Assembly: GCF_049647105.1 (NCBI RefSeq)
Contig: NZ_JBARWZ010000147.1
Span: forward strand, 10,754 to 74,753
Direction: 5' to 3'
Length of the DNA: 64,000 nucleotides
DNA from: Actinophytocola sp.
GTDB lineage: Bacteria; Actinomycetota; Actinomycetes; Mycobacteriales; Pseudonocardiaceae
Shown here: one piece after another, positions 637 through 36,596 of the stretch
Layout of the letters: each line of letters opens with the position of its first letter
Position numbering within the stretch: position 1 is the first letter of the stretch
Position numbers and translations under genes: made by a program
Notes under the pieces: model-generated
What the model saw: only the letters and a program-made list of their open reading frames with translations
The model's database searches: none
What the model was told of the DNA's origin: nothing

Positions 637-1404
637 CTATCTCGGCGAACCCGCGGCAACCGACTGGGCGTGCGCGCGGAGCCTGGTGAGGATCTCCGGC
701 ACGATGTCGTTGAGGTAGAAGTGCCCGCCGGGGAACACGGACAGCTCGAAATCACTCTCGGTGTGCTCGCGCCACGCATCGGCCTCGGCGACCGTCACCT
801 TGGGATCGTTGTCGCCGGTGAGCGCGTAGATGGGGCAGCGGAGCTTCGGGCCGGGGCGGTGGGTGTAGGTCTCCGCGGCCGTGTAGTCGCCTCGGATCGC
901 CGGCATGACCATGGCCAGGACGTCTTCGTCGTCGAGCAGCTCGGCCTCGGTGCCGCCCAGCTGCTTCATGGCGGCGAGCAGACCGGCGTCGTCACGCAGG
1001 TGGATGCGCTCGACACGGGAGCGGTGTGGCGCGGGCCGGCCGGATGCAAACAGGGCGGTCGGTATGATACCGGACTGCTCCAGACGGCGGGCAACCTCGT
1101 AACCGAGTGTCGCGCCGAGGCTGTGGCCGAAGATCGTGAGCGGGCGGTCGGTCAGCGGCGCGATGGCCGCCGCCAGACCGTCGGCGAGGTCGTCGATCGA
1201 GCGCAGGACCGGCTCACGGCGCCGGTCCTGGCGGCCGGGGTACTGCACGGCCAGCACGTCGACCTCGGGCGCGAGTGCCCTGGAGACACCGAAGAAGTAA
1301 CTGGCCGAGCCGCCAGCGTGCGACAGGCACAGCAACTGGGTCTCGGCGTCATCCGCCGGATGGAACCGCCGCACCCACAGGTCGGTGTCGGTCATCTCGC
1401 TCAC
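637..1404 (-). CDS. Type II (editing) thioesterase, alpha/beta hydrolase
   Basis: 255-aa ORF with a GHSLGA nucleophile elbow and an N-terminal LLCLSHAGGSASYF motif typical of PKS/NRPS-associated TEII. The track start is GTG 1404. The ATG at 1395 lies 7 nt after GAGGTG and may be the real start. Confidence 0.9.
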   Translation of the reverse strand: MSEMTDTDLWVRRFHPADDAETQLLCLSHAGGSASYFFGVSRALAPEVDVLAVQYPGRQDRRREPVLRSIDDLADGLAAAIAPLTDRPLTIFGHSLGATLGYEVARRLEQSGIIPTALFASGRPAPHRSRVERIHLRDDAGLLAAMKQLGGTEAELLDDEDVLAMVMPAIRGDYTAAETYTHRPGPKLRCPIYALTGDNDPKVTVAEADAWREHTESDFELSVFPGGHFYLNDIVPEILTRLRAHAQSVAAGSPR

Positions 1405-1803: not shown

Positions 1804-1886
1804 CCGTGAATCGCTCATATCGACACTGAGCAACCGCCTTGCTACCGTGGGTGTCCGCTGTGGCGTCCCCGACCGTGAATCGCTCA
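1804..1886. promoter_or_regulatory. Two perfect copies of CCGTGAATCGCTCA (1804-1817 and 1873-1886) in the divergent promoter region
   Basis: Exact 14-bp direct repeat, 69 bp start to start, between the small-ORF/TEII operon and the SARP/PKS operon. The binding factor is unknown. Confidence 0.35.
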
Positions 1887-2015
1887 CCGCCACCGTTTCC
1901 GTTGTTCACACCGGAATGCGTGAGGTGGGACCGTTCCTCGAGGGCGTCCCGGGATGGAACCATTGCCGTGCCGACATTGCCGGCTGGGGGCATTTCCAGA
2001 CTCGGAGTAAAGCCC

Positions 2016-2789
2016 ATGAGGTTTTCTGTTCTCGGGAGTATCGAGGTCACGACCGACACCGCCCCACTCGAACTGGGCGGGGTCAAACAGCGTGCGATCC
2101 TCGGCTACCTCGTGCTCCACGCGAACAAGGTGGTGCCGACCAGCCGTCTGCTACAGGCCATGTGGGACGGTGTCCCGCCGCCGACCGCACGCAAGATGAT
2201 CCAGAACGCGGTGTCGGGGATCCGTCGTGTCCTCAATGGACCGCACGCCGAGGGCCCTTCGTCGCTGCGCACCCACCCGCCCGGCTACCAGCTGCACGTG
2301 GACACCGACTCCGTCGACCTGCACCGGTTCCGCGCGCTCGCACGGGACGGCAGGGCGGCCATCGCAGGCGGCGAACCGGAGCGGGGCGGTGAACTGCTGC
2401 GCTCCGCGCTGTCGCTGTGGCGCGGGCGTGCGCTCGCCGACCTGGTCGAGGCCGGCTACCGGTGGTCGGAGCTGACCGCCGTCGAGGACGAGCGTCTGTC
2501 CACTTTGGAGGATCGGCTGGACGCGGAGCTGGTGTGCGGCAGGCACCGGGAGATCACCCCGGAGCTGGAGGTGCTGACCGCGACCGAACCGCTGCGGGAA
2601 CGGCTGTGCCATCAGTTCATGCTGGCGCTCTACCGGTCCGGCAGGCAGGCGGACGCGCTGCGGGTCTACCGGCGCACCAGGGAGGCGCTGGTCGACAGCC
2701 TCGGCCTCGAACCGGGACGCGACCTCCAGGAGCTCCAGCAGCGGATTCTCGACCACGACGCCGCGATCCAGGCCGTCACCAGTAGTTGA
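2016..2789 (+). CDS. SARP-family transcriptional activator (winged-helix + BTAD)
   Basis: ATG 2016 has GGAG 8 nt upstream; the track start at 1839 is an unsupported extension. MRFSVLGSIEV...GGVKQRAILGYL is the OmpR-type DNA-binding domain. It is followed by a BTAD (LWRGRALADL ... LALYRSGRQADALRVYRRTREALVDSLGLEPG). Confidence 0.9.
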   Translation: MRFSVLGSIEVTTDTAPLELGGVKQRAILGYLVLHANKVVPTSRLLQAMWDGVPPPTARKMIQNAVSGIRRVLNGPHAEGPSSLRTHPPGYQLHVDTDSVDLHRFRALARDGRAAIAGGEPERGGELLRSALSLWRGRALADLVEAGYRWSELTAVEDERLSTLEDRLDAELVCGRHREITPELEVLTATEPLRERLCHQFMLALYRSGRQADALRVYRRTREALVDSLGLEPGRDLQELQQRILDHDAAIQAVTSS

Positions 2790-2880: not shown

Positions 2881-5800
2881 ATGCCGCGTACCGAACTGCT
2901 CCGACCGCTACCCGAGTTGCTCAGCGAGAACGCGAGCCGGTATGGCGAACGGGTCGCGTTCGCCGACTCCCGGCGCACCGTGACGCACGCCGACCTGGCG
3001 ACGCGCACGGCGCGGTTGGCAGGCCACCTCACCGATCTCGGGGTGTGGCCGTCGGACCGCGTCGCCGTCCTCCTCGACGGCGCGGACGGCGTCGCCGCGG
3101 TGGAGAGCATCGTGGCGATCGGCAGGTCGAGCGCCATCGCCGTGCCGCTCGACCCGGCACTCGACGACACCGAGCTGGCCCGGCTCGTCGCGGACAGCGG
3201 CGCCGACACGGTCATCACCGGCGCGGCGCTCGCGCACCGGGTCACCGCGCTGGCACCCGCGCCGCAGAACGTGATCGTCGTGGGCGGCCCGGCCGACGGG
3301 ACCACCGCGTCGTTCGAGGAGCTGGCGACCACCGAACCCGATTCGGCTCCGAACGACGACCTCGCGCTGGACGACCTGGCCTTCCTGGTCTACACGGCGG
3401 GCACGACCGGCCCGCGCAAGGGCGTGCTGTCCACGCAACGCAACGCGCTCTGGTCGATGGCCGCCGCGTACGCGCCGGTCGTCGGACTGTCCGAAGAGGA
3501 CAGTCTGCTGTGGCCGCTGCCGGTGCACGGCGGGCTCGCGCACCACCTGGCCGTACTGGCCCCGATCGTGGTCGGCGCCTCGGTGCGGTTCGCGGACCCG
3601 GTGGACCTGCTGGCAGCACTGGCCGACAGCACCATCGTCGCGGGCACCCCACGAATCCTCGCCACGCTCCTGGACTCCCCCGCGCCCAACCTGCGCGCCG
3701 GGCTCGCGGTCGGCGCGGCGAGCGACGCGGACCTGCGCACGAACTTCGCATCGGCGTTCTCCGCGCCGCTGCTGGACGTCTACACCACCACCGAGACCTG
3801 CGGCCCGGTCGCGCTGACCTGGCCGCGCGGCGAGGACACCCAGGCTTCGCGCTGCCTGCCCGTGCCGGGCCTGAGCGTGCGCATCGTCGACCCGCTGACC
3901 GGCACCGACATGGGTACCGGCCAGGAGGGTGAGCTGTGGGTCAGCGGCCCGAACGTGATGGCCGGCGGCTACCACAACCTCCCCGACGCGACGGCGTCCG
4001 TGCTGCGCACCGGCTGGTACCGCACCGGTGACCTGGCCCGCCGCGACGAGTCCGGCTACCTGACGGTCACCGGCAGGCTCTCCGACGTCATCGTGGTCGG
4101 CGACGAGCGGGTGCGCCCGGAGCGGGCCGAGGCCGTGCTGCGTGCCGTGGCCGGTGTGACCGACGCCGCGGTGGCGGGACGGCCCGATGACGAGCTTGGT
4201 GCCACCGCGGTCGCGTTCGTCGTCGGCGAACCCGACCCGGCTGCCCTGCTCACCGCGTGCCGCGACCAGTTGCCGCCCGCCGCGGCGCCGGTCGAGGTGT
4301 TCGCCGTGCCCGCGATCCCGCGCACGGCGGCCGGTGAGATCAGCAGGCACCGCCTGCTCGACCTCCCCGCCCGCCTGCTCGCGACCACCGCCACCGGCGA
4401 GCTGTTCACGCTGGACTGGGAACCGGTCGCGAACGCGGTCGACAGCGAACCCGGCGACTGGGTCCTGGTCGGCCCCGGCGCCCTCGCGACCGACACCGAG
4501 GTGTTCGCCGACACCTATCCGGACCTGCCCGCGCTGGCCGAGGCCGTCGCCGCCGGGCGGGCCGCCCCTGACGTCGCGTGCGTCGAACTGGACGCCGACG
4601 GCATGCCACCCGGTGAACCGCGTGCGTTCCTCGCCGACGAGCAGGTCGCGGTGACCCGGCTCGTGTTGCTGACCCGGGGTGCCGTGCACGCCGGTGGTTA
4701 CTCCCCCGAGCCGGGGCTGGCCGCCGCGTGGGCGCACGCGCGGGAGATCCAGAAGCGCTACCCGTGCCGCATCGCGCTCGTCGACGCCGACGCCGTTTCC
4801 CCGCACGCGCTGCGTGGCGCCGTGGGGTCCGGGCACGACGAGGTCGCGATTCGGGTGGAAGACCTGCTGCGACCCCGTTTCACCCCCGTCCCCGCCACCA
4901 CGGGCGGTCAAGCGCTCGGCGGCACCGCCGTGCTGGTCGGCAAGGCGGACGAGGTACTGGCCCGGCACCTGACCGAGGCACACGGCACGACCGTCGTCAC
5001 GGCGGAGGACGCCGCCGCGCTGGCCGCGATCCTCGCCGACCGCACCGGGGGCGCCGCGGTCACGGCCGTGGTGTGCACCGACCCCGAGCCGGGCACCGCG
5101 CAGTTCGCGCACGAGCAGACCCTCGCGCTCGACCTGTCCGCGTTCGTGCTGCTGACCACCGGTTACGACACCCCCGCGACCGCGTTCGCCGACGCGCTGG
5201 CCCGCCACCGCGCGGTGCTGGGCCTGCCATCGGTCGCGATCACGTGGTCCCCGACGGGTTTCCTGACACTGCCGGAAGACCGCCGCACGGCCATGTTCGA
5301 CCTGGCGCTGGCCGCCGGCGCGCCGAGCGTGGTCGCGGCACGCAGGAACGAGCTGGCCACCGGGTCGACCGCGATGCTGAACGCACCCGGCGCCGAGGCG
5401 ACGCTCGCCGCGTTGCGGGACCGGCTGCTCACGCAGACGGCGGCCGACCGGACGCGGACCGTGCTGGACCTCGTGCACACCGAGACGATCGCGGTCCTCG
5501 ACAGCCAGGCACCGGCCACGCTGGACGCCGAGACCCCGTTCCGGCAGCTGGGTTTCGACTCGCTGGCCGCCGTGCAGCTGCGTGGCAGACTGTGCGCCGC
5601 CACCGGTCTCGACCTGCCCGCCACCCTGATCTTCGACTACCCGACCCCGGACACGCTGGTCGAGCACCTGCTGGCCGAACTGGGCGTCGGCGACGTGACC
5701 GAGCAGGCCACCACCACCGTCACCGCGCGGTACGACGACCCGATCGCGATCGTCGGCATGGGCTGCCGCTTCCCGGGTGGCGTGCGTACCCCGGACGAGC

Positions 5801-8800
5801 TGTGGCAGCTGGTGGTCGACGGCGTCGACGCGGTGTCCGCGTTCCCGACCGACCGAGGCTGGGACCTGGCCGCGCTGTTCGCAGGCGACGGGCCGGGCAC
5901 GATCAGCGCGCAGGCGGGTGGTTTCCTGCACGACGCCGCCGACTTCGACGCGGAGTTCTTCGGCATCAGCCCCCGCGAGGCGCTCGCCATGGACCCGCAG
6001 CAGCGGCTGCTCCTGGAGACCTCGTGGGAGGCCCTGGAGCGCGCGGGTATCGACCCGACCGGCTTGCGCGGCACCGACACCGGCGTGTTCGCAGGCGTTC
6101 CGGTGCAGCACTACGGCCGGGGCGGGCACGCTGAGGAGGACGGTGTCGAGGGGTTCCTCATCACCGGCATCGCGAGCAGCGTCGCGTCCGGCCGCATCGC
6201 CTACGTGATGGGCCTCGAGGGCCCGGCGATGACCGTCGACACGGCGTGCTCGTCGTCGCTCGTGGCACTGCACCTCGCGGTGCAGGCGCTGCGCTCCGGT
6301 GAGTGCTCCCTCGCGATCGCGGGTGGCGTGACCGTGATGTCCGGGCCCGAGACGTTCACCGAGTTCTCCCGCCAGGGCGGCCTGTCGCCGGACGGCCGGT
6401 GCAAGGCGTTCTCCGAGGATGCCGACGGCACCGGCTGGTCCGAGGGCGCGGGCATGCTGGTCGTGGAACGGCTGTCCGACGCGCAGCGCAACGGGCACCA
6501 GGTGCTGGCCGTGCTGCGCGGCACCGCGATCAACCAGGACGGCGCGTCGAACGGGCTGACCGCGCCGAACGGGCCGTCGCAGCAGCGGGTCATCCGGCAG
6601 GCACTCGCCAACGCCGGGCTCGCCGCGTCCGATGTGGACGCGGTGGAGGCGCACGGCACCGGCACGATGCTCGGTGACCCGATCGAGGCGCAGGCCCTGC
6701 TGGCGACCTACGGGCAGGACCGAGACCGGCCGCTGTGGCTTGGGTCGCTGAAGTCCAACATCGGCCACGCTCAGGCCGCGGCCGGGGTCGGCGGTGTCAT
6801 CAAGATGGTGATGGCGCTGCGCAACGAAGTGCTGCCCAGGACGCTGCACGTCGGGGAACCGACGAAGAAGGTGAACTGGTCGGCTGGTGCGATGAGCCTG
6901 CTGACCGAGCCCGCCGAGTGGCCTGCCGGTGCGCTGGTGCGCCGGGCGGGGGTGTCGTCGTTCGGGATGAGCGGCACCAACGCGCACGTCATCATCGAGG
7001 AGGCGCCGCCGGCCGAGGTGACCGAGCCCGCCACGACACCGCCGGTGGTGCCGTGGGTGCTGACGGCACGGTCCGAGCAGGCACTGCGGGCACAGGCACT
7101 GCGCCTCAAGTCCTTTGTGGAGTCGCGGCCCGCGCTTCTGCCCGCGCAGGTCGGGCGGTCGCTGCTGGACACCCGCGCGCGGTTCGACCACCGGATGGTG
7201 GTGACCGGCGCGGACCGGGACGACCTGCTGGTGGGGCTCGTGTCCGGGACGCCGTTCACCGGTGCGTCCGGCAAGCTGGCGGTGCTGTTCACCGGCCAGG
7301 GCGCACAGCGCGCCGCGATGGGACAGCGGCTGTACGGGGCGTTCCCGGTGTTCGCGGCCGCGTTCGACGAGGTGTGCGCACACTTCGACCCGGGTCTCCG
7401 CGACGTGATCGAGTCAGGAGAAGGGCTCGACGACACCGGCAACACCCAGCCGGCACTGTTCGCGATCGAGGTCGCGCTCTACCGGCTGCTGGAGTCGTGG
7501 GGGGTGCGGCCCGACTACCTGGCCGGGCACTCCATCGGTGAGCTGGCCGCCGCGCACGTCGCGGGCGTGTGGTCCCTCGAGGACGCCTGCACGGTCGTCG
7601 CCGCACGCGGGCGGCTGATGCGGGAACTTCCCCGTGGTGGCGCCATGATCGCCATCCAGGCCACAGAAGCGGAGATCATCCCGCACCTCACCGACACGGT
7701 CGACATCGCCGCGATCAACGGGCCGGACTCGCTCGTGATCTCCGGCGACGAGGGCGCCGCGCAGGCCATTGCCGCCGTGTTCACCACGCAGGGCCGCAAG
7801 ACCAAGCAGCTCACCGTCTCCCACGCGTTCCACTCGCCGCTGATGGACCCGATGCTCGGCGAGTTCCGGGCCGTCGCGGAAAGCGTGACCTACCACGAGC
7901 CCGCGATCCCGATCGTCGGCGCGGAGCCGACCGACCCGGAGTACTGGGTGCGGCACGTCCGCGGCACGGTCCGGTTCGCCGACGCCGTCGCCGCGCTGGA
8001 GGCCGCCGGGGTCCGCACGTTCGTCGAGGCCGGGCCCGACGCGGTGCTGACCGCGCTGACCGGCAGCCCCCAGGCGATCCCGCTGCTGCGGGCGAACCGG
8101 GACGAGCTGCGGACCGTCGCCGACGCGTTCGGCCGCCTCGCCGCGGTGACCACAGTGGACAGTGCGGCGTTCTTCCCCGGCGCGGGCGTGGTCGAGCTGC
8201 CCACCTACGCGTTCCAGCGCCGCTCGTACTGGCTGCGGCCCGCCAACCTCGGTGACCTCGGCGCGGCCGGGCTCACCGCGACCGGCCACCCGCTGCTCGG
8301 CGCGATGCTCGGGGTCGCCGACTCCGACCGGCTCGTGCTGACCTGGCGGCTCTCGCTACAGGCGCAGCCGTGGCTCGCCGACCACGCCGTGCTCGACTCG
8401 ATCCTGTTGCCTGGCACCGCGTTCGTGGAGCTGGCTGGCCGCGCCGCCGAGTACAACGGGCACGCCGCCATCGAGGAGCTGACGCTGCGGGCACCGCTGC
8501 GGCTCACCCACGAGACGCCGATGGACCTGCAGGTGTGGACCGGTCGGCCCGACGAGCACGGCCGCCGCACGGTCGAGGTGTACTCGCGCCCGGCGGACAG
8601 CGGCGGTGGCACTGACGGAGAGTGGACCTGTCACGCGGCGGGTGTCCTCACCGACGACGAGGTCGCCGCACCGGCCACTGTGGACACCGAGTGGCCGCCA
8701 TCGGGTGCGGAACCCGCCACGACAGGCGACTTCTACGACTGGTTGCTGTCCCGCGGCTTCACCTACGGCCCGGCGTTCCAGGGCGTGCAGGACGTGTGGC

Positions 8801-11800
8801 AGCGCGGTGAGGAACTGTACGCGCAGGTGACGCTGCGCGAGGACGAGCAGTCCGGCGCCGCCCGGTTCGGCGTGCATCCGGCACTGCTCGACGCGGCCAT
8901 GCATCCGATGGTGCTGCACCTGGACAAGAGCACGCAGAAGGCGCAAGCATGGCTGCCGTTCTCGTGGCGCGGGGTGCGGCTGCACCGCTCCGGCGCGACG
9001 GCCCTGCGCGTGCGGCTGGTGCCGGACGGCGCCAGCTCGGTGCGCGTGAGTGCGACCGACGACGACGGCAACCCGGTGCTCGACATGGAGTCGGTCGCGC
9101 TGCGGCCGGTGTCGACCGACCAGCTCGGCGGCGCCACGACCCCGGAGGCCGCGCTCTACACCAACGAGTGGGTCACCGTGCCAACCCCCTCGGGCCGCGA
9201 CACGGCGGGCACCGGGATCCACCCGATCGAGGCGGGCACCGCGGTGCGGGAGGCCGTCTTCGGCACCCTCGCCGCCCTGCGTGATTCGCTCACCGGCGAC
9301 GACCGCCTCGCCGTGGTCACGCGGCCGGACGACCTCGCGGGCTCGGCGGTGGCCGGACTGGTCCGGTCGGCCCAGACCGAGCACCCGGACAGGTTCGTGC
9401 TCATCGAGACCGCTGGCGACCTGGTCGACGCGGCGATCGCGTCGGGCGAGCCGCAGGTCGCGGTCCGCGACGGCGCGCTGACCGTCCCCCGGCTCACCCG
9501 CGCCGAGACCGCCACGTCGGACGACCGGCTGTTCGACCCGGCAGGCACCGTCCTGCTCACGGGCGGCACCGGCGCGCTCGGTGGCGCGCTGGCCCGGCAC
9601 CTGATCACCGAACACGGCGCGCGGCACCTCGTGCTGACATCGCGCCGCGGCCTGGACGCTCCCGGCGCGACCGGGCTCCGCGACGAGCTGACCGAGCTCG
9701 GCGCCCGCGTCGAGATCGCCGCCTGCGACGCCGCCGACCGCGACGCGCTCGCCGCGCTGCTGGCGACCATCCCGCACCTGGCGGGTGTGGTCCACGCGGC
9801 CGGTGTGCTCGACGACGGCATCCTCGAGTCGCTCACCGAGGAGCGGGTCGACGCGGTACTGGCGCCGAAGGTCGACGCCGCGCTCAACCTGCACGAGCTG
9901 ACCGGTGACCGGGACACCGTCGAACTCTTCGTGTTGTTCTCGTCGGTCGCGAGCATCCTCGGCACCGCAGGGCAGGCGAACTACGCCGCCGCGAACGCGT
10001 TCCTCGACGGGCTCGCCGTGCACCGGCACGCACAGGGCAAGGCCGCGACCGCGCTGTCGTGGGGCCTGTGGGAGCAGGACAGCGCGATGACGGCGAACCT
10101 CACCGAGGCCGACCGCGCACGGCTCAACCGGGGCGGTGTCCTCCCCCACTCCGTCGCGGACGGGCTCGCCATGTTCGACGCGGCGTGCCGCACCGGCCTC
10201 CCGCACCTCGTCCCCGTGACGCTGGACCTCGCGGCGCTGCGCACCGCGACCACCGCTCCCCCGCCGCTGCAGGGGATGGTGAAGACCCCGCGCAAGCGGA
10301 CCACCGGCAAGCCGACCGCGGCCGCGCTCACCGAGCGGCTCGCCGGGCGGACGGAAGACGAGCGGCGCACGTTCCTGCTGGAGGTCGTGCGCACGCAGGT
10401 GGCGTCGGTGCTGGCGATGCCGGACCCGGACGCACTCACCGCGACGCACGCGTTCAAGCAGCTGGGTTTCGACTCGCTGACCGCGGTCGAGCTGCGCAAC
10501 CGGCTCAACACGGCGACCGGCCTGCGGCTGCCCGCCACGCTCACGTTCGACTACCCCACGCCGGAGTCACTCGTCGAGTTCCTGCTCGCCGAGCTGGGTG
10601 AGGGACAGGAACAGCAGGCGGTCGCCGCGCGGGTGGTGGCGACCGACGAGCCGCTCGCGATCGTCGGCATGGCCTGCCGCTACCCGGGTGGTGTGTCCAC
10701 TCCGGACGAGTTGTGGGAGATGCTGACCGCGGGCGCGGACGGCGTTACCCCGTTCCCCGCCGACCGCGGCTGGGACCTCGCGAACCTGTTCGACCCGGAC
10801 CCCGACACCCCCGGCACCAGCTACGTCGACCAGGGCGGGTTCCTGCTCGACGCGGCCGAGTTCGACGCGGAGTTCTTCGGGATCAGCCCGCGCGAGGCCC
10901 TCGCCATGGACCCGCAGCAGCGCGTGTTCCTGGAAACCTGCTGGGAGGCACTGGAACGCGGTGGCCTCGACCCCGCCACGCTGCGTGGCACGGCCACCGG
11001 CGTGTTCACCGGCCTCATGACGCACGACTACGCGGCCCGCTCCAGCGCGGTGCCCGACGGCGTCGAAGGGTTCTGGGGCACCGGAACCGCGGGCAGTGTC
11101 GCCTCCGGCCGGGTCGCCTACACGCTCGGGTTCGAGGGCCCGGCGGTCACGATCGACACCGCGTGCTCCTCCTCGCTCGTGTCACTGCACCTTGCCGCGC
11201 AGGCGCTGCGCTCCGGCGAGTGCTCGCTCGCGCTCGCCGGCGGCGTGACCGTGATGGCGACCCCCGGGCTGTACGTGGAGTTCTCCCGCCAGCGCGGTCT
11301 CGCGAAAGACGGCCGCTGCAAGGCGTTCTCGTCGGCCGCGGACGGCACCGCGTGGGCGGAGGGTGTCGGTGTGCTGGTCGTGGAACGGCTGTCGGACGCA
11401 CGCCGCAACGGGCACCCGGTGCTGGCGCTGCTGCGTGGCTCCGCGGTGAACCAGGACGGCGCGTCGAACGGGCTGACCGCGCCGAACGGGCCGTCACAGC
11501 AGCGGGTCATCCGCTCCGCGCTGGCGGGCTCCGGCCTCACGCCGTCCGATGTGGACGCGGTGGAGGCACACGGGACCGGCACGTCGCTCGGTGACCCGAT
11601 CGAGGCGCAGGCGCTGATCGCGACCTACGGCCAGGACCGCGACCGGCCGCTGTGGCTGGGTTCGCTGAAGTCCAACATCGGGCACACGCAGGCCGCGGCC
11701 GGTGTCGGCGGCATCATCAAGATGGTCCTCGCCATGCGCAACAACCTGCTGCCGAGGACGCTGCACGTCGAAGAGCCCAGCGACAAGATCGACTGGTCCG

Positions 11801-14800
11801 CCGGCGCGGTGGAGCTGCTGACCGAGCCGGTGCCGTGGGTGCGCAACGGCCACCCCCGCCGGGCGGGCGTCTCGTCGTTCGGTGTCAGCGGCACGAACGC
11901 GCACGTGATCATCGAAGAGGCGCCGACGGCGCCGGTGAGCGAGCCGGAAGACGGGCCACCCGTCGTGCCGTGGGTGCCGTGGGTGCTCTCGGCGCGGACC
12001 GAGCAGGCCCTGCTGGACCAGGCGGCACGACTGAGGTCCTTTGCGGAGTCGAAGCCGGAGCTGGCGCCGGCCGACATCGGCCGGTCGCTCGTGGAGTCCA
12101 GGGTCGGGTTCGACCACCGCGCGGTCGTGTACGGCGCGGACCGGGACGAGTTGCTGCGTGGGCTGGAAGAGCTGACGACCGGCGTGGTGCGGGGCGGCAA
12201 GCTGGCGGTGTTGTTCACCGGCCAGGGCGCGCAGCGGGCCGGGATGGGACAGCGGCTGTACGAGACGTTCCCGGTGTTCGCGGACGCGTTCGACAACGTG
12301 TGTGCGTACTTCGAGACCGACGTCCGCGAGGTGATCCGGTCCGGGGAAGGACTCGACGACACCGGCAACACCCAGCCCGCGTTGTTCGCGTTCGAGGTGG
12401 CGTTGTTCCGGTTGCTGGCGTCGTGGGGTGTCAAACCCGACTACCTGGCCGGGCATTCGATCGGTGAGCTGGCCGCCGCGCATGTGGCCGGGGTGTGGTC
12501 GATCGAGGACGCGTGCACGGTCGTCGCCGCTCGTGGCCGGTTGATGCAGGCGCTGCCGCGTGGTGGCGCGATGATCGCGATCCAGGCGACCGAGGACGAG
12601 ATCGCGCCGCACCTGACCGACACGGTCGGGATCGCGGCGATCAACGGGCCGCGGTCGATCGTGATCTCCGGTGAGGAAACCGCCGCCGAGGCTGTTGCGG
12701 CGCGGTTCGCGGACCGTAAGGCCAAACGGCTCACGGTCTCGCATGCGTTCCACTCGCCGTTGATGGACCCGATGCTCGACGAGTTCCGGGCCGTCGCCCA
12801 AGGCGTGACCTACCACGAGCCGACCATCCCGATCATCGGCGCAGAGCCCACCGACCCCGAGTACTGGGTGCGGCACGTCCGCGGCACCGTCCGGTTCGCC
12901 GACAACATCGCCGCACTCGAGTCGGCCGGGGTCCGCACGTTCGTCGAGGCCGGTCCGGACGCGGTGCTGACCGCGCTGGGCGGCGACGACTTCGTGCCCA
13001 CCGCGCGGCGGGACCGCGACGAGGTCCGCACGGTGGTCGAGGCGCTCGGCGGGCTGCACCAGCGTGGCGTCCGGGTCGACCTGCCCGCGCTGTTCGCTGG
13101 CGCGGGCCGGGTGGACCTGCCGACGTACGCGTTCCAGCACCAGCGGTACTGGCTGATCACGCAGGAGTCGGCGGGCAGCGCGACCGGGCTCGGGCTCGGC
13201 GCGACCGGCCACCCGCTGCTCGGTGCCGCGCTCGGTCTCGCCGACTCGGAGCGGGTCGTGCTCACCGGCAGGCTGTCGCTGCGCGACCACCCGTGGCTCG
13301 CCGACCACGTCGTGCTGGGCACGACGCTGGCACCGGGTGCCGCGCTGGTCGAACTGGCCCGCCGCGCGGCGGAACACACCGGCCTCGACGTCATCGACGA
13401 GCTGACGCTGCACGCACCGCTCGTGCTGAGCGAGACCGACGCGATGCACGTCCAGGTCGAGGTCGGCGAGCCGGACGAGGCCGGACAGCGGCCCGTGCGG
13501 ATCCACTCGCGCCGCGAGGGCGCCGACGACCAGTGGACCCAGCACGCGAGCGGCCTGCTCGCCACCGGCGACCACACTCCCGACCACGTCGGCGAATGGC
13601 CGCCGCCGGGTGCCGACCCGGTGCCGGTGGACGACGTGTACGACCGGATCGCGGACCTCGGCGTCGACTACGGGCCGACGTTCCAGGGCCTCACCGCGGT
13701 GTGGCAGCGCGGGGACGACCTGTTCGCCGAGGTGTCGCTGCCCGACGGGCTCAGCCCGGACAAGTACGGCATCCACCCCGCGCTGCTGGACTCCGCACTG
13801 CACGCGATGTTCGTGCCGGAACGCGAGGACCGGCAGGTGGTGCTCCCGTTCAGCTGGAGCGGCGTGCGGATCGCTGGCACGAGCCCGACGGCGTTGCGTG
13901 TGCGGATCACGAAGACGGGCCAGGACGCGTACGCGCTGACGCTCACCGACCGCACCGGCGCGCCGGTGGCGAGCGTGGAGACCCTCGTCGCGCGGCCGGT
14001 CAGCGCGGACGCGCTGAACTCCGGCCCGGACTCGCTGTACCGGCTGGACTGGGTGCCCGCTGGCCCCGCGTCCGACCCCGTCACCGCGGAAATCCTGCGC
14101 GTCGAGACCGACGATGTCGGCCAGGCCGTGCACGAGACGCTGGCGGCGCTGCGGAACGCACCCGACCGGCTGGCCGTGGTCACCCATGGCGCGACGACCG
14201 GCGAGAACCTGGCCGGTGCCGCGGTGTGGGGCCTGGTCCGCTCCGCGCAGACCGAGCAGCCGGACCGGTTCGTCCTCGTCGACACCGACGGTGACCTCGA
14301 CGCGGCACTCGCGTCCGGTGAGCCGCAGGTCGCGGTCCGCGACGGCAAACTGCTGGTGCCCCGCCTGGCCAAGGCGACGTCCACTTCGGACGGACGACTG
14401 TTCGACCCGGACGGCACGATCCTGATCACCGGCGGCACCGGCGCCCTGAGCGCGGCACTGGCCCGCCACCTGATCACCGAGCACGGCGCGCGGCACCTGG
14501 TGCTGACCTCCCGCCGCGGCCCGGCGGCACCGGGAGCGGCGGAGCTGATCGCGGAGCTCGGCGTCGAGATCGTCGCCTGCGACGCCGCCGACCGGGACGC
14601 GCTCAAGACGTTGCTGGACGGCATCCCGAACCTCGCGGGCGTGATCCACGCGGCGGGCGTCGTCGACGACGGCACGATCGAGTCGCTGACCCCCGACCAG
14701 GTGGACGCGGTGCTGCGCCCGAAGGTCGACGCGGCGATGAACCTGCACGAGCTGGCCGGTGACGTCGAACTGTTCGTACTGTTCTCGTCGGCGACGGGCA

Positions 14801-15681
14801 TCCTCGGTACGGCGGGACAGGCGAACTACGCGGCGGCGAACGCGTTCCTGGACGGGCTCGCCATGCGACGGCACGCGGCGGGCCTGCCAGCGGTGTCGCT
14901 GTCGTGGGGCCTGTGGGCGCAGGACAGCGCGATGACGGCAAACCTCACCGAGGCGGACCTGGCCCGCATCAACCGAGGCGGCGTGCACGCGCACACCGTC
15001 GAGGAGGGCCTCGCGCTGTTCGACGCGGCGTGCCGGTCCGGTGAGCCACACCTGGTGCCGGTGAAGCTGGACCAGCGAACCCTGCGCACGGCGACGAACG
15101 TGGCACCCCCGCTGCGGTCGTTCGTGAAGGCCCGCCGCCAGACCAAGGCAGCGGTGGTCCCGCTGGCACAGCAACTGGCGGGCCGCACAGAGGAAGAGCA
15201 GCGCACACTGCTGCTGGACCTGGTGCGCACGAACGTGGCGACGGTCCTGGCACACGGCACCCCGGACACGATCTCGGCGGACCAGCAGTTCAAGCAGCTG
15301 GGCTTCGACTCGCTGACCGCGGTGGAGCTGAGGAACCGCCTGAACACGGCGACCGGCATGCGCCTGCCCGCCACGCTCACGTTCGACTACCCGACCCCAC
15401 AGGCGCTGGTGGCGCACCTGTTGTCCGAGGTGGGCGGCAGCCAGACGAAACTGCGCCTCCGCACCCTGGTCGACACGATCGCCAAACTGGAGACCGCACT
15501 GGAGGGCATCGAGTCCAAGGACACGGAGGACACCGACATCGCCGCGTCCCTCCAGCGCCTGCTCACCAAGTGGCGAGACAAGTCGCAAGCCGCCCCATCC
15601 CAGGAGAAGGACGACCTGGACGAAATCACGGCCGACGACCTCTTCGACCTACTGGACGACGAACTGGGCGACGTGGCCTAA
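2881..15681 (+). CDS. Modular type I polyketide synthase: loading [acyl-AMP-ligase-like A, degenerate KR, ACP] + 2 x [KS-AT-DH-KR-ACP] + C-terminal docking tail, no TE
   Basis: 4266-aa ORF. Approximate nt ranges: A 2881-4400 ([19 protein letters not shown]); KR-like fossil 4430-5400; ACP 5470-5690 (LGFDSLAAV). Module 1: KS1 5737-7010 ([23 protein letters not shown]); AT1 7270-8130 (GHSIGE, HAFH = malonyl type); DH1 8280-9130 ([21 protein letters not shown]); KR1 9250-10100 ([17 protein letters not shown]); ACP 10370-10600. Module 2: KS2 10649-11930; AT2 12190-13050 (GHSIGE, HAFH); DH2 13200-14000; KR2 14150-14930; ACP 15200-15430. Acidic helical docking tail to 15678. The two extension modules are close paralogues with long identical nt runs. 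Confidence 0.95.
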
Positions 15682-16493: not shown

Positions 16494-18062
16494 TCAACTC
16501 ACTCGGCGCTCTTCGCCTTGCCAGAAGCGCTCGCGCAGCTCGCGGCGCAGGATCTTGCCGCTCGGGTTGCGTGGCACCTTCTCGATGAACTCGTACCGCA
16601 GCGGCTGCTTGAACGTCGCCAGCTTGCCCGTGAGGAACAGGGCCAGCTCGCGCTCCGTCAACGTCTCGCCCTCGACCGGGACGACGAAGGCGTGCACGAT
16701 CTCGCCCCAGCGCTCGTCCGGGACGCCGACGACCGCGGACTCCGCGACCTTCTCGTGCTTGCCGATGACGTTCTCGATCTCGGCGGGGTACACGTTCTCG
16801 CCCGCGACGATGATCATGTCCTTGATGCGGTCGCGGATGAACAGGTAGCCGTCCTCGTCGAGGACGCCAGCGTCACCCGTCACGACCCAGCCGTCGACCA
16901 GCGTCTTCGCGGTGGCCTCCGGCAGGTTCCAGTACTCCAGCATCGCCGCGGGGGTACGCAGCCACACCTCGCCCACCTCACCGGCGGGCAGCGGGTTGCC
17001 ATCGGCGTCCGCGACCTTCACGTCGAAGCTCGGGTAGGCGCGGCCCGCGGCCTGCATCCGCCCGCTGTCCGGCGTGTGGTCGGCAGGCGGCAGGCACATC
17101 GCGGTGTTGCCGGTCTCCGTCAGCCCGTAGATCTGGGCGAACTCGCAACCGAACCCCTCGACGCACCTGGCGAGCAGCGCAGCGGAGATCGGGGCGCCGC
17201 CGTAGATGACCTTGCGCAGCGTGGTGAAGTCGTCCTTCGTCACGCCGGGCTCGGCGAGCAGGAGCCGCATCATCGCGGGCACCAGACATGCCGTCGTGAC
17301 GCCGAGTGTCCTGATCAGCTCCACCGCGCCCGCCGTGGTGAACTCCCGCATCACGACGTTGGTGGCACCCGCCGTGAAACCCTGCGTCGCCCACCAGATG
17401 CCGCCGATGTGGAAGCCCGCCATGCCGATGAGGCTGACATCCTCGGGGTAGAAGTCGATCCACTTCTCCCCGGCCTCGGCGAGTGCGTTGCGTACCGCGA
17501 AGAAGCTGCGGTGCCCGAGCACGACACCCTTCGGCAGTCCGGTGGTGCCGCTCGTGTACATCTGCACGAGCGGCGTGTCCGGCGTGACCCGGCCGAGCAC
17601 GTTCGTGTCCGGCTGCGCCGCCAGCCACGACGTGAACCCGGCGCCCGGCGCGTCCGGCGTGTCCAGCCGTACCACGGTGGTCAGCTGCGGCAGCTCAGGC
17701 GCGAGCCGGTCCGCAGTGGCCTCCGCCGCGGTGTCGGCGAACAGCACCGTGGTGCCCGAGTCGCGCAGGATGTGCTCGACCTCGTCGGCGGCGAGTCGCC
17801 AGTTGATCGGCACCAGCACGGCACCGCACTTCGCGGCGCCGAACAGCAGCTCGTAGTAGTGCTCGGACTCCTTGCCCAGGTAGGCGACGCGGTCACCCGC
17901 GCGGACACCGCCGGCCTGGAGGCCGTGCGCGACCTGGTTGCTCACCCGGTGCAGCCCGGCGTAGTCGGTCCGGCGACCCTCGCAGATCATCGCGACCGCG
18001 TCCGGCTGCTTCGCGGCATGGGCTCGCACCACGTCGACGAGCGTCCGCAACTGGGGTGCCAC
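16494..18062 (-). CDS. Fatty acyl-AMP / acyl-ACP ligase, FadD10/ScoC-like
   Basis: AMP-binding motifs YTSGTTGLPKGVVLGHRSFFAV, FHIGGIWW, YGLTETG, GWVVTGDAG and PSGKILRRELR. The RSFFAV..EAGEKWI and HIGGIWW segments match what I recall of M. tuberculosis FadD10. The best start is GTG 18062, preceded by AGGAGGA; the track start at 18080 is a TTG. Confidence 0.85.
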   Translation of the reverse strand: MAPQLRTLVDVVRAHAAKQPDAVAMICEGRRTDYAGLHRVSNQVAHGLQAGGVRAGDRVAYLGKESEHYYELLFGAAKCGAVLVPINWRLAADEVEHILRDSGTTVLFADTAAEATADRLAPELPQLTTVVRLDTPDAPGAGFTSWLAAQPDTNVLGRVTPDTPLVQMYTSGTTGLPKGVVLGHRSFFAVRNALAEAGEKWIDFYPEDVSLIGMAGFHIGGIWWATQGFTAGATNVVMREFTTAGAVELIRTLGVTTACLVPAMMRLLLAEPGVTKDDFTTLRKVIYGGAPISAALLARCVEGFGCEFAQIYGLTETGNTAMCLPPADHTPDSGRMQAAGRAYPSFDVKVADADGNPLPAGEVGEVWLRTPAAMLEYWNLPEATAKTLVDGWVVTGDAGVLDEDGYLFIRDRIKDMIIVAGENVYPAEIENVIGKHEKVAESAVVGVPDERWGEIVHAFVVPVEGETLTERELALFLTGKLATFKQPLRYEFIEKVPRNPSGKILRRELRERFWQGEERRVS

Positions 18063-18185
18063 GATGTCCTCCTGTGTCAATTTGGTCGCTTCGCTCCTCC
18101 GCTAAGCCACCGTCTTCCCTCCTGCGCGCGGAAGCCCCTGGGCTCGTACCTCGCGCAGGGACTTCCGTACTCCGAAAGGTGCTGG

Positions 18186-18800
18186 TCAGGCCGCGCGCAG
18201 CTTCATGCCAGGCGGGTCGACCAGTGCCATCCGGACCTCACCCTCGGCGTAGCCGCCGTTCTCGTCCCAGAAGCGCCACGGCATGTCGACCTTCAGGACC
18301 GGACGGCTGCGGTTGGTCTCGGCGAACTCGGCGAAGGACACCTCACCACTGAAGTCCGCCGAGTCGATCGGGCGCTTGAAGTTGCTGGAGAACCTCGCGA
18401 TGAGGATGTCCGGCAGCTGCTTGGCCCAGTAGTCCTCCATCGACCACGCGTCGAACGCGCTGAGCGCGCGCTCCTGCACGCACTTGGCGATCAGGTAGTA
18501 CATCAGCTGGTTGAAGCAGATGTTCACCTCGACCGAGTTGAGGTGGCCCGTGTCGTCGATGTAGCAGGGGAACGGGATGGCGAACCGGCCCTCCGCGCTC
18601 GCCAGCCCGTCCGACACCGCCACCGTCGCCGACTTCAGGTACTCGGTCTTCGGGCGCGCATAAGGGCGCAGTACGTCCGAGAGCAGTGCCGGGTCGTTGG
18701 CGAAGTTCGTTTCGCCGGAATTGTTGTTCGGCAATACTGTCATCATTTCCTCCTCGGCGCGCCCACGCGATTCGAATCGACCGTAATCGGTGCTGGTCAT
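18186..18800 (-). CDS. FcoT/ScoD-family hotdog-fold protein (Rv0098-like; glycine Michael-addition enzyme of isonitrile pathways)
   Basis: DTGHLNSVEVNICFNQLMY, SMEDYWAKQLPDILIARFSSNFKRP and FWDENGGYAEGEV correspond to the motifs I recall for Rv0098 (STGHFNAVELILCFNQLAY, FWDENGG). ATG 18800 overlaps the SARP stop (ATGA). The alternative ATGs at 18746/18743, just after GAGGAGGAA, give a 185-186-aa product closer to the family length. Confidence 0.85.
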   Translation of the reverse strand: MTSTDYGRFESRGRAEEEMMTVLPNNNSGETNFANDPALLSDVLRPYARPKTEYLKSATVAVSDGLASAEGRFAIPFPCYIDDTGHLNSVEVNICFNQLMYYLIAKCVQERALSAFDAWSMEDYWAKQLPDILIARFSSNFKRPIDSADFSGEVSFAEFAETNRSRPVLKVDMPWRFWDENGGYAEGEVRMALVDPPGMKLRAA

Positions 18801-20102: not shown

Positions 20103-20114
20103 CGAGGAGAAGTC

Positions 20115-36556: not shown

Positions 36557-36596
36557 CCCTGCCTCACCCTCAGTGCGGAGAATTCACGGGCGCGGC

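What the first reader, a model, noticed from the sequence alone, without database searches (positions are those of the whole stretch)
5737..15681. Two identical KS-AT(malonyl)-DH-KR-ACP modules with no TE predict a 2,4-dienoyl thioester, a ready Michael acceptor for the ScoD-like enzyme
Seen: both extension modules carry HAFH-type (malonyl) ATs, intact DH motifs (HxxxGxxxxP) and LDD-type KRs. There is no ER and no terminal TE or R domain. The protein ends in an acidic helical docking tail ([23 protein letters not shown]).
Established: ScoD/Rv0098-type enzymes add glycine to the beta-carbon of an alpha,beta-unsaturated acyl-ACP, and ScoE/Rv0097 then converts the adduct to an isonitrile.
Inference, two alternative logics:
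(a) The PKS manufactures the enoyl-ACP that is then converted to the isonitrile.
(b) A short isonitrile acyl unit made on the free ACP is the PKS starter and is extended to an isocyano-dienoyl chain handed to the NRPS C domain.
Either would differ from the fatty-acid-derived INLP pathways.
Basis: inference. Interest (0 to 1): 0.6.

Follow-up and report, generated by a model that had tools for sequence, protein, structure and literature searches.

The report
First subunit of longer polyene PKS
The two polyketide modules are real, but they are only the start of a nine-module assembly line that continues in a gene just outside the window, and that line sits inside a gene neighbourhood, conserved in five actinomycete genera, that also makes a copper-binding isonitrile compound.

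Summary
The domain reading is correct. Window 2881-15681 (+) encodes one 4266-aa type I PKS: a loading module (outside the finding's coordinates) plus two KS-AT(HAFH)-DH-KR-ACP modules and an acidic tail, with no ER, TE or R.

The tail is a DEBS/lasalocid-type C-terminal docking domain. Its partner is a PKS gene 6 kb upstream of the window. That gene begins with the matching N-terminal docking coiled coil and continues on contig C274, adding seven more modules. The 2,4-dienoyl-ACP is a transient intermediate, not the product and not handed to the NRPS.

The broader idea of PKS/ScoD cooperation gains support. In Actinophytocola, Saccharothrix, Actinosynnema, Micromonospora and Actinoplanes the ScoE-ACP-NRPS-copper operon is nested between this PKS and its partners. 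There, SARP-ScoD-ScoC sits directly upstream of the second PKS subunit.

Two further features point the same way:
- The ScoE-like enzyme has a short-chain pocket.
- The PKS loader has lost the catalytic A10 lysine only in ScoD-linked clusters.

Both favour an isonitrile acid loaded in trans as the PKS starter (amycomicin-like logic). This is inference. No earlier scan note on other DNA described this.

The parts
2881..15681 (+). PKS-A, 4266 aa: loader, two extension modules and a C-terminal docking domain. It is the first subunit of the assembly line.
   Evidence: ORF; Pfam domains; orthologues of 4080-4456 aa in four genera
2881..4380 (+). Loader adenylation-type domain (A*). Motifs A3, A7 and A8 are kept. 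The A10 catalytic Lys is replaced by Glu (PRTAAGE).
   Evidence: Pfam AMP-binding 15-362 and AMP-binding_C 417-485; alignments
4381..5490 (+). Degenerate KR-like linker between A* and the loading ACP
   Evidence: Only a faint KR match, E 1.9e-4. It is the least conserved part among orthologues, 34-86%.
5491..5736 (+). Loading ACP (GFDS at aa 891)
   Evidence: Third PP-binding stretch; motif; 60% identical to ACP1 and ACP2, not ScoB-like
5737..10650 (+). Extension module 1: KS-AT(HAFH)-DH(HxxxDxxxxP)-KR(LDD)-ACP
10651..15420 (+). Extension module 2: KS-AT(HAFH)-DH(HxxxGxxxxP)-KR(VDD)-ACP
15421..15678 (+). C-terminal docking domain, class 1 (DEBS/Lsd14 type), here called type X, ending ...[13 protein letters not shown]
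   Evidence: ACP2 plus tail aligns over residues 2-127 with 7S6B_E (E 1e-21) and with the EryA2/EryAI C-termini. Conserved in orthologues.
637..1404 (-). Type II thioesterase, always next to SARP1 and PKS-A
   Evidence: Pfam Thioesterase, E 2e-54; synteny
1839..2789 (+). SARP regulator directly upstream of PKS-A
   Evidence: Pfam BTAD and Trans_reg_C
16494..18080 (-). ScoC-like acyl-ACP ligase (A10 Lys kept). It is the candidate trans-loader.
   Evidence: Pfam AMP-binding; 82-95% identical across genera; A10 SGK
18186..18800 (-). ScoD/CmiS1/SAV606-type enzyme (glycine Michael addition plus thioester hydrolysis)
   Evidence: Pfam FcoT, E 2e-57; SAV606 5WSY E 5e-49 and Rv0098 2PFC E 8e-29; only copy in the genome
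18797..19933 (-). Second SARP. Its stop codon overlaps the ScoD-like start.
   Evidence: Pfam BTAD; coordinates
36710..37663 (-). ScoE-like Fe/2OG isonitrile synthase with a short-chain pocket type
   Evidence: 6DCH ScoE E 3.6e-122 against Rv0097 8KHT E 1.3e-75; P1-P3 are EGF, P4 is S, P6 is Y
36305..36583 (-). Free ACP (ScoB-like), with no docking tail
   Evidence: Pfam PP-binding; sequence
32473..36411 (-). NRPS C-A-T-TE, with no N-terminal docking coiled coil
   Evidence: Pfam; N-terminus

Best explanation
**Core reading.** PKS-A (2881-15681) is the initiating subunit of a cis-AT, all-malonyl type I PKS with nine extension modules. It is not a self-contained two-module synthase.

**How the chain is built.**
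- Its loading ACP is primed with a carboxylic acid.
- Modules 1 and 2 each add malonate. The B-type KR reduces and the DH dehydrates, giving an (E,E)-2,4-dienoyl chain on ACP2.
- The acidic C-terminal docking domain then binds the N-terminal coiled coil of PKS-B. That gene starts 6.2 kb upstream of the window on the minus strand and continues on contig C274. KS3 takes the chain.
- PKS-B (three DH-KR modules), PKS-C (KR only), PKS-D (DH-KR), PKS-E (DH-ER-KR) and PKS-F (KS-carrier) follow.
- The dienoyl-ACP is therefore a passing intermediate of a polyene chain.
- Status of these steps: the domains, the docking homology and the extra genes are shown. The pairing itself is inferred from docking classes and their stoichiometry.

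**Link to the isonitrile genes (inference, about 0.6 that the pathways are biochemically coupled).** The PKS belongs to a conserved supercluster in which the ScoE/ACP/NRPS/copper-uptake operon is nested between PKS-A and its partner subunits.

The most likely coupling (about 0.4) runs as follows:
- ScoC, ScoD, ScoE and the free ACP make a short beta-isocyano acid.
- That acid is loaded in trans, probably by ScoC, onto the loading ACP of PKS-A, whose own adenylation domain has lost its catalytic lysine.
- The PKS then extends it, as in amycomicin and aerocyanidin biosynthesis.
For: **The line continues.**
- The window is C147:10754-74753, and a KS lies at C147:3748-4500 on the minus strand.
- That gene starts at L001:4599 with PF08990 Docking (E 1e-7), then KS-AT-DH-KR, and runs off the contig.
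- C274 abuts it with a 9-nt overlap and an open frame.
- C274 carries the rest of PKS-B, an MMPL gene, and PKS-C, D, E and F, 81-87% identical to Actinophytocola algeriensis. All ATs read HAFH.
- In A. algeriensis all five downstream PKS proteins begin with a docking domain and none has a loader.

**Docking.**
- ACP2 plus tail aligns end to end with Lsd14 ACP-dock 7S6B_E (1e-21) and with the DEBS C-docks.
- The PKS-B N-terminus aligns with the Lsd14 and EryA2 N-docks.
- The C- and N-termini fall into two classes. These pair consistently at the colinear junctions 2-3, 3-4 and 4-5 in Micromonospora.
- This leaves exactly one free partner for PKS-A, in Micromonospora, in G017 and in G000/G015.
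- No N-dock motif occurs in any frame of the window.

**Coupling to the isonitrile genes.**
- SARP-ScoD-ScoC is followed co-directionally by a PKS in 14 of 24 close loci. In 7 more it faces the PKS-A tail. Of the remaining three, two are cut by contig ends and one (A. oryzae) has no PKS there.
- The ScoC open frame overlaps that of the PKS gene by a few bases in G017 and abuts it in Micromonospora.
- In the complete Micromonospora and Actinosynnema genomes the isonitrile, NRPS and copper genes lie between PKS-A and PKS2-5.
- PKS-linked ScoD proteins form a clade (92/81), with a 100/100 subclade spanning five genera.

**Starter model.**
- The ScoE-like enzyme keeps the ScoE short-chain positions in every PKS-linked type.
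- The A10 Lys is lost in 11 of 11 loaders of ScoD-linked PKSs and kept in 13 of 13 paralogous loaders elsewhere. Of the 11 genomes with Lys-keeping loaders that were checked for ScoD, 10 have none.
- amc/aec provide a precedent.
Against: - Docking partners are assigned from sequence classes, not from a binding test.
- One junction (PKS-D to PKS-E) is unexplained, because PKS-D has no recognisable C-dock.
- Three type-X/type-x pairs coexist in one line, so the finer specificity is assumed.

Against the coupling:
- A. oryzae keeps SARP-ScoD-ScoC, ScoE and the NRPS but lacks PKS-A at the syntenic site.
- One Actinophytocola genome (G022) has a canonical PKS-free ScoE-ScoC-NRPS cluster.
- An earlier scan note reports a SigC-type promoter for the ScoE operon, whereas ScoD/ScoC and the PKS sit behind SARP genes.
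- The loading ACP looks like an ordinary PKS ACP, not like ScoB.
- The related genomes are kin, so the counts are not independent.
- The eight-position pocket rule for ScoE rests on one paper.
Confidence: 0.8

Rival explanations
1. The clusters are nested but biochemically independent. The nine-module PKS makes a polyene of its own. ScoB-E plus the NRPS make an ordinary isonitrile lipopeptide chalkophore. The genes are interleaved only through shared history or co-regulation. PKS-A is still the first subunit of the long line.
For: - The ScoA-E-like set is complete without the PKS.
- A. oryzae and G022 keep it without PKS-A.
- An earlier scan note reports a separate SigC-type promoter for the ScoE operon.
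- A RiPP YcaO cassette is also interleaved, which shows that unrelated pathways can sit there.
Against: - The interleaving is kept across five genera and two families, despite rearrangements.
- The ScoC frame overlaps or abuts that of a PKS gene.
- Lys loss in the loader correlates with ScoD linkage.
- The line has no TE, and the only copy of ScoD/ScoC sits in the PKS-side operon.
Confidence: 0.3
2. The dienoyl chain on ACP2 of PKS-A is the Michael acceptor. ScoD adds glycine at C3 and hydrolyses the thioester. ScoE makes the isonitrile on the free acid. ScoC reloads it onto the emptied ACP2 or the free ACP, and the chain then passes by docking to PKS-B.
For: - In cremimycin, the TE-less PKS CmiP4/3/2 feeds the ScoD homologue CmiS1.
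- ScoD here is 55%-class similar to SAV606.
- ScoD and ScoC genes flank the junction between the first PKS protein and the next one in both cluster types.
- A propenyl side chain would still fit a short-chain ScoE pocket.
Against: - In the G011-type clusters five modules precede the same junction, yet ScoE keeps the short-chain residues.
- Reloading onto a docked PKS ACP has no precedent.
- The loader would still need priming despite the missing Lys.
- No CmiS2-like oxidase lies on C147 or C274, although ScoE would replace it.
Confidence: 0.12
3. PKS-A is the whole PKS and passes an isocyano-dienoyl chain from ACP2 directly to the C domain of the C-A-T-TE NRPS.
For: PKS-A has no TE, and the NRPS starts with a C domain.
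Against: - The tail is a PKS-to-PKS class 1 docking domain.
- The NRPS and the free ACP have no coiled-coil partner.
- A cognate partner and seven more modules exist in the same genome.
- Every orthologous cluster has four to eight further modules.
Confidence: 0.03

Closest known systems
Amycomicin (amc) and aerocyanidin (aec) clusters: ScoB-E homologues plus type I PKS plus P450s
   Same: - ScoE, ScoD and ScoC homologues and an ACP are clustered with modular PKS genes and P450s.
- Their isonitrilases AecA and AmcA also carry ScoE-like short-chain pocket residues.
- The favoured model, a short isonitrile acid extended by the PKS, is their logic.
   Different: - Here the PKS has nine to ten modules, mostly DH-KR (polyene), not a fatty-acid-like chain.
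- It has its own loader of A-type domain, KR remnant and ACP, with the catalytic Lys lost.
- A complete NRPS, uptake and copper-ATPase operon is nested in the cluster.
- I could not read the 2024 JACS paper, so details of amc/aec priming are from memory.
Cremimycin starter-unit pathway (CmiP4/P3/P2, CmiS1, CmiS2)
   Same: A TE-less PKS whose last module contains a DH, clustered with a CmiS1/SAV606/ScoD-type glycine-adding thioesterase.
   Different: - PKS-A carries a docking domain whose partner is another PKS.
- No CmiS2-type FAD oxidase is on these contigs.
- No VinN/M/K/J-type beta-amino-acid carrier enzymes turned up in the Pfam scans of the window ORFs.
- A ScoE-type oxygenase is present instead.
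Canonical isonitrile lipopeptide clusters (ScoA-E, Rv0096-Rv0101, SF2768)
   Same: ScoE, ScoD and ScoC, a free ACP, an NRPS, a copper ATPase and an ECF sigma factor are all present. ScoE is close to the crystallised ScoE.
   Different: - ScoD and ScoC are split from ScoE/ACP/NRPS and placed with a SARP and the PKS genes.
- The NRPS ends in a TE, not an R domain.
- Its A domain is only about 35% identical to those of Streptomyces clusters.
- ScoD belongs to a separate PKS-linked clade.
DEBS / lasalocid Lsd14 class 1 docking domains
   Same: The C-terminal ACP-dock and the N-terminal coiled coil of the partner both align with the solved examples. Pfam PF08990 matches the partner.
   Different: Only sequence homology was shown. 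Binding and specificity were not tested.

Membership tests
cis-AT modular type I PKS | KS with Cys-His-His, an in-line AT, and an ACP with a phosphopantetheine Ser in each module | tested here: met
   Pfam; TACSSS, HGTGT, NIGH, GHSIGE and GFDS in both modules
cis-AT modular type I PKS | Malonyl-specific AT (HAFH) and a reducing loop of DH plus B-type KR | tested here: met
   HAFH twice. DH His and Asp are present; DH1 has D in place of the motif G. KR reads LDD and VDD, with the catalytic Tyr.
Terminal (chain-releasing) PKS subunit | C-terminal TE, R or other off-loading domain | tested here: not met
   No such Pfam domain. The C-terminus is a docking domain.
Class 1 (DEBS-type) docking pair | A C-terminal helical tail after the ACP that is homologous to the DEBS/Lsd14 docking domains | tested here: met
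   7S6B_E E 1e-21 and EryA2 E 1.5e-20 over residues 2-127; 1PZQ E 0.021
Class 1 (DEBS-type) docking pair | A partner protein with an N-terminal coiled coil directly before a KS | tested here: met
   PKS-B at L001:4599(-) has PF08990 at residues 2-30 and aligns with the Lsd14 and EryA2 N-termini
Class 1 (DEBS-type) docking pair | Physical, specific binding of the two domains | not testable with these tools
   Only class matching and stoichiometry are available
Isonitrile lipopeptide (ScoA-E) pathway | ScoE-type Fe/2OG oxygenase, ScoD-type thioesterase, ScoC-type ligase and a free ACP | tested here: met
Isonitrile lipopeptide (ScoA-E) pathway | NRPS with a terminal reductase (reductive release) | tested here: not met
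   The NRPS is C-A-T-TE
Cremimycin-type starter PKS with CmiS1/CmiS2 | A TE-less PKS ending in a DH-containing module, plus a CmiS1 homologue | tested here: met
Cremimycin-type starter PKS with CmiS1/CmiS2 | A CmiS2-type FAD glycine-oxidase homologue in the cluster | tested here: not met
   39 DAO-family matches in the genome, none on C147 or C274
Amycomicin/aerocyanidin-type PKS-isonitrile hybrid | ScoB-E homologues clustered with PKS and P450 genes | tested here: met
   compared with the description
Amycomicin/aerocyanidin-type PKS-isonitrile hybrid | The isonitrile acyl unit is the PKS starter | not testable with these tools
   Indirect support only: the short-chain ScoE pocket and the Lys-less loader

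The most novel reading that the evidence does not exclude
A supercluster conserved in at least five actinomycete genera makes a polyene polyketide capped with an isonitrile, possibly joined to an amino acid by the nested C-A-T-TE NRPS. The product would serve copper acquisition. Its PKS loader has become a pseudo-adenylation domain and is primed in trans by the ScoC-type acyl-ACP ligase with a short beta-isocyano acid.
Probability: 0.3. Interest if true: 0.75.

Novelty: new variant of a known kind. Interest (0 to 1): 0.5.

Why it matters
If the coupling is real, this would be a third way of using the ScoC/D/E isonitrile enzymes, after lipopeptides and the amycomicin-type fatty acids. It would be a long polyene line nested with copper-uptake genes, and it is spread across Pseudonocardiaceae and Micromonosporaceae.

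It would also give a natural example of a PKS loading domain that has lost its adenylation lysine yet stays conserved. That is directly testable in cultivable strains: A. algeriensis CECT 8960, A. glycyrrhizae CGMCC 4.7433 and Micromonospora sp. KLBMP9576.

For the scan, it shows that 'no TE' in a window-limited view should be read against docking domains and neighbouring contigs before a product is predicted.

Tried and rejected
- **Literature.** The key paper on aerocyanidin/amycomicin biosynthesis (JACS 2024, PMC11334264) and Harris et al. 2017 (PMC5502637) are not held. Searches for the strain names, 'isonitrile polyketide' and 'isocyanide polyketide' found nothing. The SF2768 review does not discuss PKS-linked variants.
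- **Expression.** No RNA holder is listed for the stretch, only soil-metagenome DNA.
- **Wider co-occurrence.** An evenly drawn sample of 400 genomes of the order held no close PKS-A orthologue, only paralogous loaders at 41-52% identity. It could not test whether PKS-A occurs without ScoD. It did supply the Lys-retaining controls.
- **NRPS substrate.** I could not map the full Stachelhaus code without a reference alignment. The partial residues (D, T, E ... V, D) hint at a basic amino acid, but this is not firm.
- **Loading ACP.** I tested whether it resembles ScoB, which would favour ScoC loading. It does not.
- **Rejected ORF.** The ORF at 15749-16465(-) has a wrong-frame-like composition and was rejected as a gene. 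The small membrane protein downstream of ScoC is 15910-16497(-).
- **Unpublished genomes.** G008, G027 and G043 were only counted in the tallies.
Full report
**1. What is at the coordinates**

Window 2881-15681 (+) is one open frame of 4266 aa. Pfam gives an N-terminal AMP-binding domain and three PP-binding domains. It also gives two each of ketoacyl-synt, Acyl_transf_1, PKS_DH_N/PS-DH and KR. No ER, thioesterase or reductase domain is found.

The finding starts at 5737, which is exactly residue 953, the first residue of KS1. It therefore describes the two extension modules and leaves out the loading module (aa 1-952). That module consists of an adenylation-type domain, a degenerate KR-like linker (faint KR match, E 1.9e-4) and an ACP.

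The motif claims hold with small corrections.
- Both ATs read GHSIGE and HAFH.
- Both KSs have the Cys-His-His set.
- Both DHs have the catalytic His and the HPALLD..H aspartate.
- DH1 reads [10 protein letters not shown] (D where the textbook motif has G). This variant is conserved in orthologues from four genera.
- KR1 reads LDD and KR2 reads VDD. Both have the YAAAN tyrosine.
- The two modules are 65.7% identical in protein and about 78% in DNA, so they are alike in architecture only.

**2. The neighbourhood**

The window comes from a soil-metagenome Actinophytocola genome. The gene map rests:

| Window position | Strand | Gene |
|---|---|---|
| 1-609 | + | MerR (partial) |
| 637-1404 | - | type II TE |
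| 1839-2789 | + | SARP |
| 2881-15681 | + | PKS-A |
| 15910-16497 | - | small membrane protein |
| 16494-18080 | - | ScoC-like ligase |
| 18186-18800 | - | FcoT/ScoD-like |
| 18797-19933 | - | second SARP |
| 20004-23950 | + | YcaO and ThcOx pair |
| 24798-27916 | mixed | histidine kinase, ECF sigma and anti-sigma |
| 28070-32695 | - | ABC/FecCD/binding protein/MFS |
| 32473-36411 | - | NRPS C-A-T-TE |
| 36305-36583 | - | free ACP |
| 36710-37663 | - | TauD/ScoE-like |
| to about 43650 | mixed | hydrolase, HMA P-type ATPase, YtkA-like protein and SIP reductase |

- The ScoE-like protein matches crystallised ScoE at E 3.6e-122, against 1.3e-75 for Rv0097.
- The ScoD-like protein matches SAV606, the CmiS1 homologue shown to add glycine to an enoyl thioester, at 5e-49. 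It matches Rv0098 at 8e-29.
- It is the only such gene in the genome.

**3. The line does not stop at PKS-A**

The window is contig C147:10754-74753. The whole-genome KS search showed another KS at C147:3748-4500 on the minus strand.
- That gene begins at C147:4599, which is 6,155 bp before window position 1. It has a Pfam 'Erythronolide synthase docking' domain at residues 2-30, followed by KS-AT-DH-KR. It runs off the contig end.
- Contig C274 abuts it with a 9-nt overlap and an open frame across the join.
- C274 carries the remainder of this protein (PKS-B, three DH-KR modules), an MMPL gene, PKS-C (KR only), PKS-D (DH-KR), PKS-E (DH-ER-KR), PKS-F (KS plus a PCP-like carrier, no AT) and an aldehyde dehydrogenase. 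These are 81-92% identical to the same genes of A. algeriensis CECT 8960.
- Every AT in the line reads HAFH.
- All five downstream proteins begin with a docking domain and none has a loader. PKS-A is thus the only possible starting subunit.

**4. Docking**

The last 129 residues of PKS-A (ACP2 plus tail) align over positions 2-127 with three solved regions: the lasalocid Lsd14 ACP-docking region (7S6B_E, E 1e-21), the C-terminus of DEBS EryA2 (1.5e-20) and that of EryAI. The alignment includes the final ...[13 protein letters not shown] helix. The N-terminus of PKS-B aligns with the N-terminal coiled coils of Lsd14 and EryA2.

Across G000, A. algeriensis, the Actinophytocola MAG G017, Micromonospora sp. 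KLBMP9576 and Actinosynnema sp. CA-248983, the termini fall into two classes.
- C-type X ends ...[13 protein letters not shown]. N-type x reads EEKLLDYLKRxTxEL...RL.
- C-type Y reads IDDMDADALIxMALAD. N-type y reads EKLVEALRxSLKENxRLR.

In Micromonospora the PKS2-5 genes are adjacent and co-directional. Their junctions 2-3 (Y-y), 3-4 (X-x) and 4-5 (X-x) obey this rule. The one type-x N-dock left without a partner is PKS2, and the one type-X C-dock left is PKS-A. The same bookkeeping works in G017 (A-2, 2-3, 3-4). It also works in G000/G015 (A-B, B-C, C-D, E-F), with one unexplained junction because PKS-D has no recognisable C-dock.

The PKS-A tail and its partner's AELRExRRRL segment are both conserved across genera. 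No N-dock-like motif occurs in any frame of the window. The NRPS, the free ACP, ScoC and ScoD have no such N-terminus.

The (E,E)-2,4-dienoyl-ACP2 is an intermediate of a chain that gains seven more C2 units.

**5. The PKS and the isonitrile genes are nevertheless linked**

An alignment of ScoD-like proteins (A1) recovered 80 loci with 10-kb flanks. I annotated them by blastp against the window's own proteins.
- Of the 24 loci whose ScoD is at least 69% identical, 14 have SARP-ScoD-ScoC followed co-directionally by KS-AT-DH-KR-ACP. These come from Actinophytocola, Saccharothrix, Actinosynnema, Micromonospora and Actinoplanes.
- Seven more (the G000-type Actinophytocola) have the convergent PKS-A tail instead.
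- Two are cut by contig ends.
- Only A. oryzae lacks a PKS there.
- Streptomyces and Kutzneria loci (ScoD about 50% identical) show the canonical MFS-ScoE-ScoD-ScoC-ACP-NRPS order with no PKS.

On a maximum-likelihood tree the PKS-linked proteins form a clade (92/81). One 100/100 subclade spans the five genera. Kin are not independent, so this is one or a few evolutionary events, not 30.

In the complete Micromonospora and Actinosynnema genomes the order is as follows: PKS-A, P450, SARP, TEII, then YtkA, Cu-ATPase, ScoE, ACP, NRPS, uptake genes, kinase, YcaO pair, SARP, ScoD, ScoC, PKS2, PKS3, PKS4, PKS5. The isonitrile, NRPS and copper genes thus lie between the first PKS subunit and its docking partner. 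The ScoC open frame overlaps the first bases of the PKS frame in G017 and abuts it in Micromonospora.

In G000/G015 a rearrangement has moved PKS-B to PKS-F to the other side of PKS-A.

**6. Which logic?**

- Cremimycin uses a TE-less PKS (CmiP4/3/2) to make the enoyl thioester for CmiS1.
- The amycomicin and aerocyanidin clusters combine ScoB-E homologues with PKSs and P450s.

Two observations favour the second logic.

*ScoE pocket.* A published eight-position rule separates short-chain ScoE from long-chain Rv0097.
- The enzyme here has E-G-F at P1-P3, S at P4 and Y at P6, the same as ScoE.
- The same residues are kept in every PKS-linked variant examined.
- That includes the G011-type clusters, where five modules precede the equivalent junction.
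- A pocket tuned to methyl or propyl side chains fits a small isonitrile acid better than a long PKS-made enoyl chain.

*Loader lysine.* The loader's A10 motif has lost the catalytic lysine.
- It reads E in G000 and A, A, S, A, A, V, S, T, S, A in the other ten loaders of ScoD-linked PKSs, while A3, A7 and A8 stay conserved.
- Thirteen paralogous loaders of the same A-KR-remnant-ACP type from other PKSs all keep PRTxSGK.
- Of the 11 such genomes checked for ScoD, 10 have no ScoD-like gene. The eleventh has one on another contig.
- ScoC, the NRPS A domain and a stand-alone paralogue upstream (L001:4650-6332) all keep the lysine.

The simplest reading is that the loader no longer adenylates, and that the conserved ScoC-type acyl-ACP ligase primes the loading ACP. 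This is inference. The loading ACP itself looks like a normal PKS ACP.

Against any coupling:
- A. oryzae and G022 keep the isonitrile/NRPS set without this PKS.
- An earlier scan note reports a SigC-type promoter for the ScoE operon, whereas ScoD/ScoC sit behind a SARP.

My estimates are:

| Reading | Estimate |
|---|---|
| Line continues into PKS-B | 0.85-0.9 |
| Some biochemical coupling | about 0.6 |
| Isonitrile starter | about 0.4 |
| Cremimycin-like interception at ACP2 with reloading | about 0.12 |
| Independent nested clusters | about 0.3 |
| Direct PKS-A to NRPS transfer | about 0.03 |

**7. Comparison and novelty**

The PKS itself is an ordinary cis-AT polyene-type line. The docking domains are ordinary class 1. 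The isonitrile enzymes are clear members of the ScoC/D/E families.

What I did not find described in the held literature has two parts. One is the conserved supercluster, in which a nine- to ten-module PKS flanks a complete NRPS, uptake and copper operon. The other is the family-specific loss of the loader lysine.

I class this as a new variant of a known kind. As written, the finding is half right: the anatomy is correct, the predicted product is wrong, and the suspected partnership is plausible.

**8. Limits**

No binding, activity or expression data could be obtained, and no RNA runs are listed. The genome is a fragmented MAG, although the C274-C147 join is supported by frame continuity and by the isolate genome of A. 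algeriensis. Domain annotation of related loci used blastp against this window's proteins (scripts). Domains absent from the window could therefore be missed there.

Noticed in passing
window 4318-4350 (A10 region of the loader, Glu codon at 4336-4338); also L003-L008, L011, L034: The catalytic A10 lysine of the loader adenylation domain is replaced by E/A/S/V/T in all 11 loaders of ScoD-linked PKSs. All 13 paralogous loaders from unlinked PKSs keep PRTxSGK. The site looks released from constraint while the rest of the domain stays conserved.
   Followed up: yes
L001:4650-6332 (-), i.e. G000:C147, upstream of the window: A stand-alone AMP-binding protein, 51% identical to the PKS-A loader domain, keeps the A10 lysine. 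It sits directly before PKS-B. It was seen in the G000-type Actinophytocola genomes examined (G000, G015, G009, G003, G004, G018) but not in the Micromonospora or Actinosynnema clusters.
   Followed up: partly
G000:C274:3557-6037 (-); L012:10891-13971 (-): The last PKS protein (PKS-F) is docking-KS-linker-carrier, with no AT and no TE. Its carrier has a PCP-like GGTSM motif and is closer to the NRPS T domain (38%) than to the PKS ACPs. In Micromonospora the last module is KS-AT-ACP instead.
   Followed up: partly
L026-L030 (Actinophytocola oryzae DSM 45499, contigs C4 and C9): A. oryzae keeps SARP-ScoD-ScoC next to SARP1 and TEII, but PKS-A is missing from between them. Elsewhere it has a 1275-aa loader-ACP-AT remnant and two ScoE copies, one of them a fragment. 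It is a natural 'PKS-less' variant.
   Followed up: partly
window 32473-36411 (-): The A domain of the NRPS is only about 35% identical to those of canonical Streptomyces isonitrile lipopeptide NRPSs and has different specificity residues (FDTSWE, ...VD). It is therefore not a simple ScoA orthologue, even though ScoE is close to ScoE.
   Followed up: partly
L119:9984-17881 (Micromonospora sp. KLBMP9576): The Micromonospora version of the supercluster carries extra genes between TEII and the copper genes: a LAL-type regulator (933 aa), a UbiA-family prenyltransferase, a NUDIX hydrolase and a KASIII/FabH-like gene.
   Followed up: no
L031-L035 (MAG contig CAWIYK010000001, G011): A second type of PKS-isonitrile cluster. 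A loader-PKS plus a 6138-aa PKS ends in a type-Y dock and is followed by ScoE and a second ScoD. About 60 kb away, SARP-ScoD-ScoC precede a PKS with the matching type-y N-dock.
   Followed up: partly
window 8383-8412 (DH1 motif): DH1 reads HxxxDxxxxP rather than HxxxGxxxxP. The Asp is conserved in the module 1 DH of orthologues in Actinophytocola, Micromonospora and Actinosynnema.
   Followed up: yes
tree; L050-L061 against L043-L048: Micromonosporaceae copies of the supercluster nest inside Pseudonocardiaceae copies on the ScoD tree. This suggests transfer of the whole supercluster between families.
   Followed up: no
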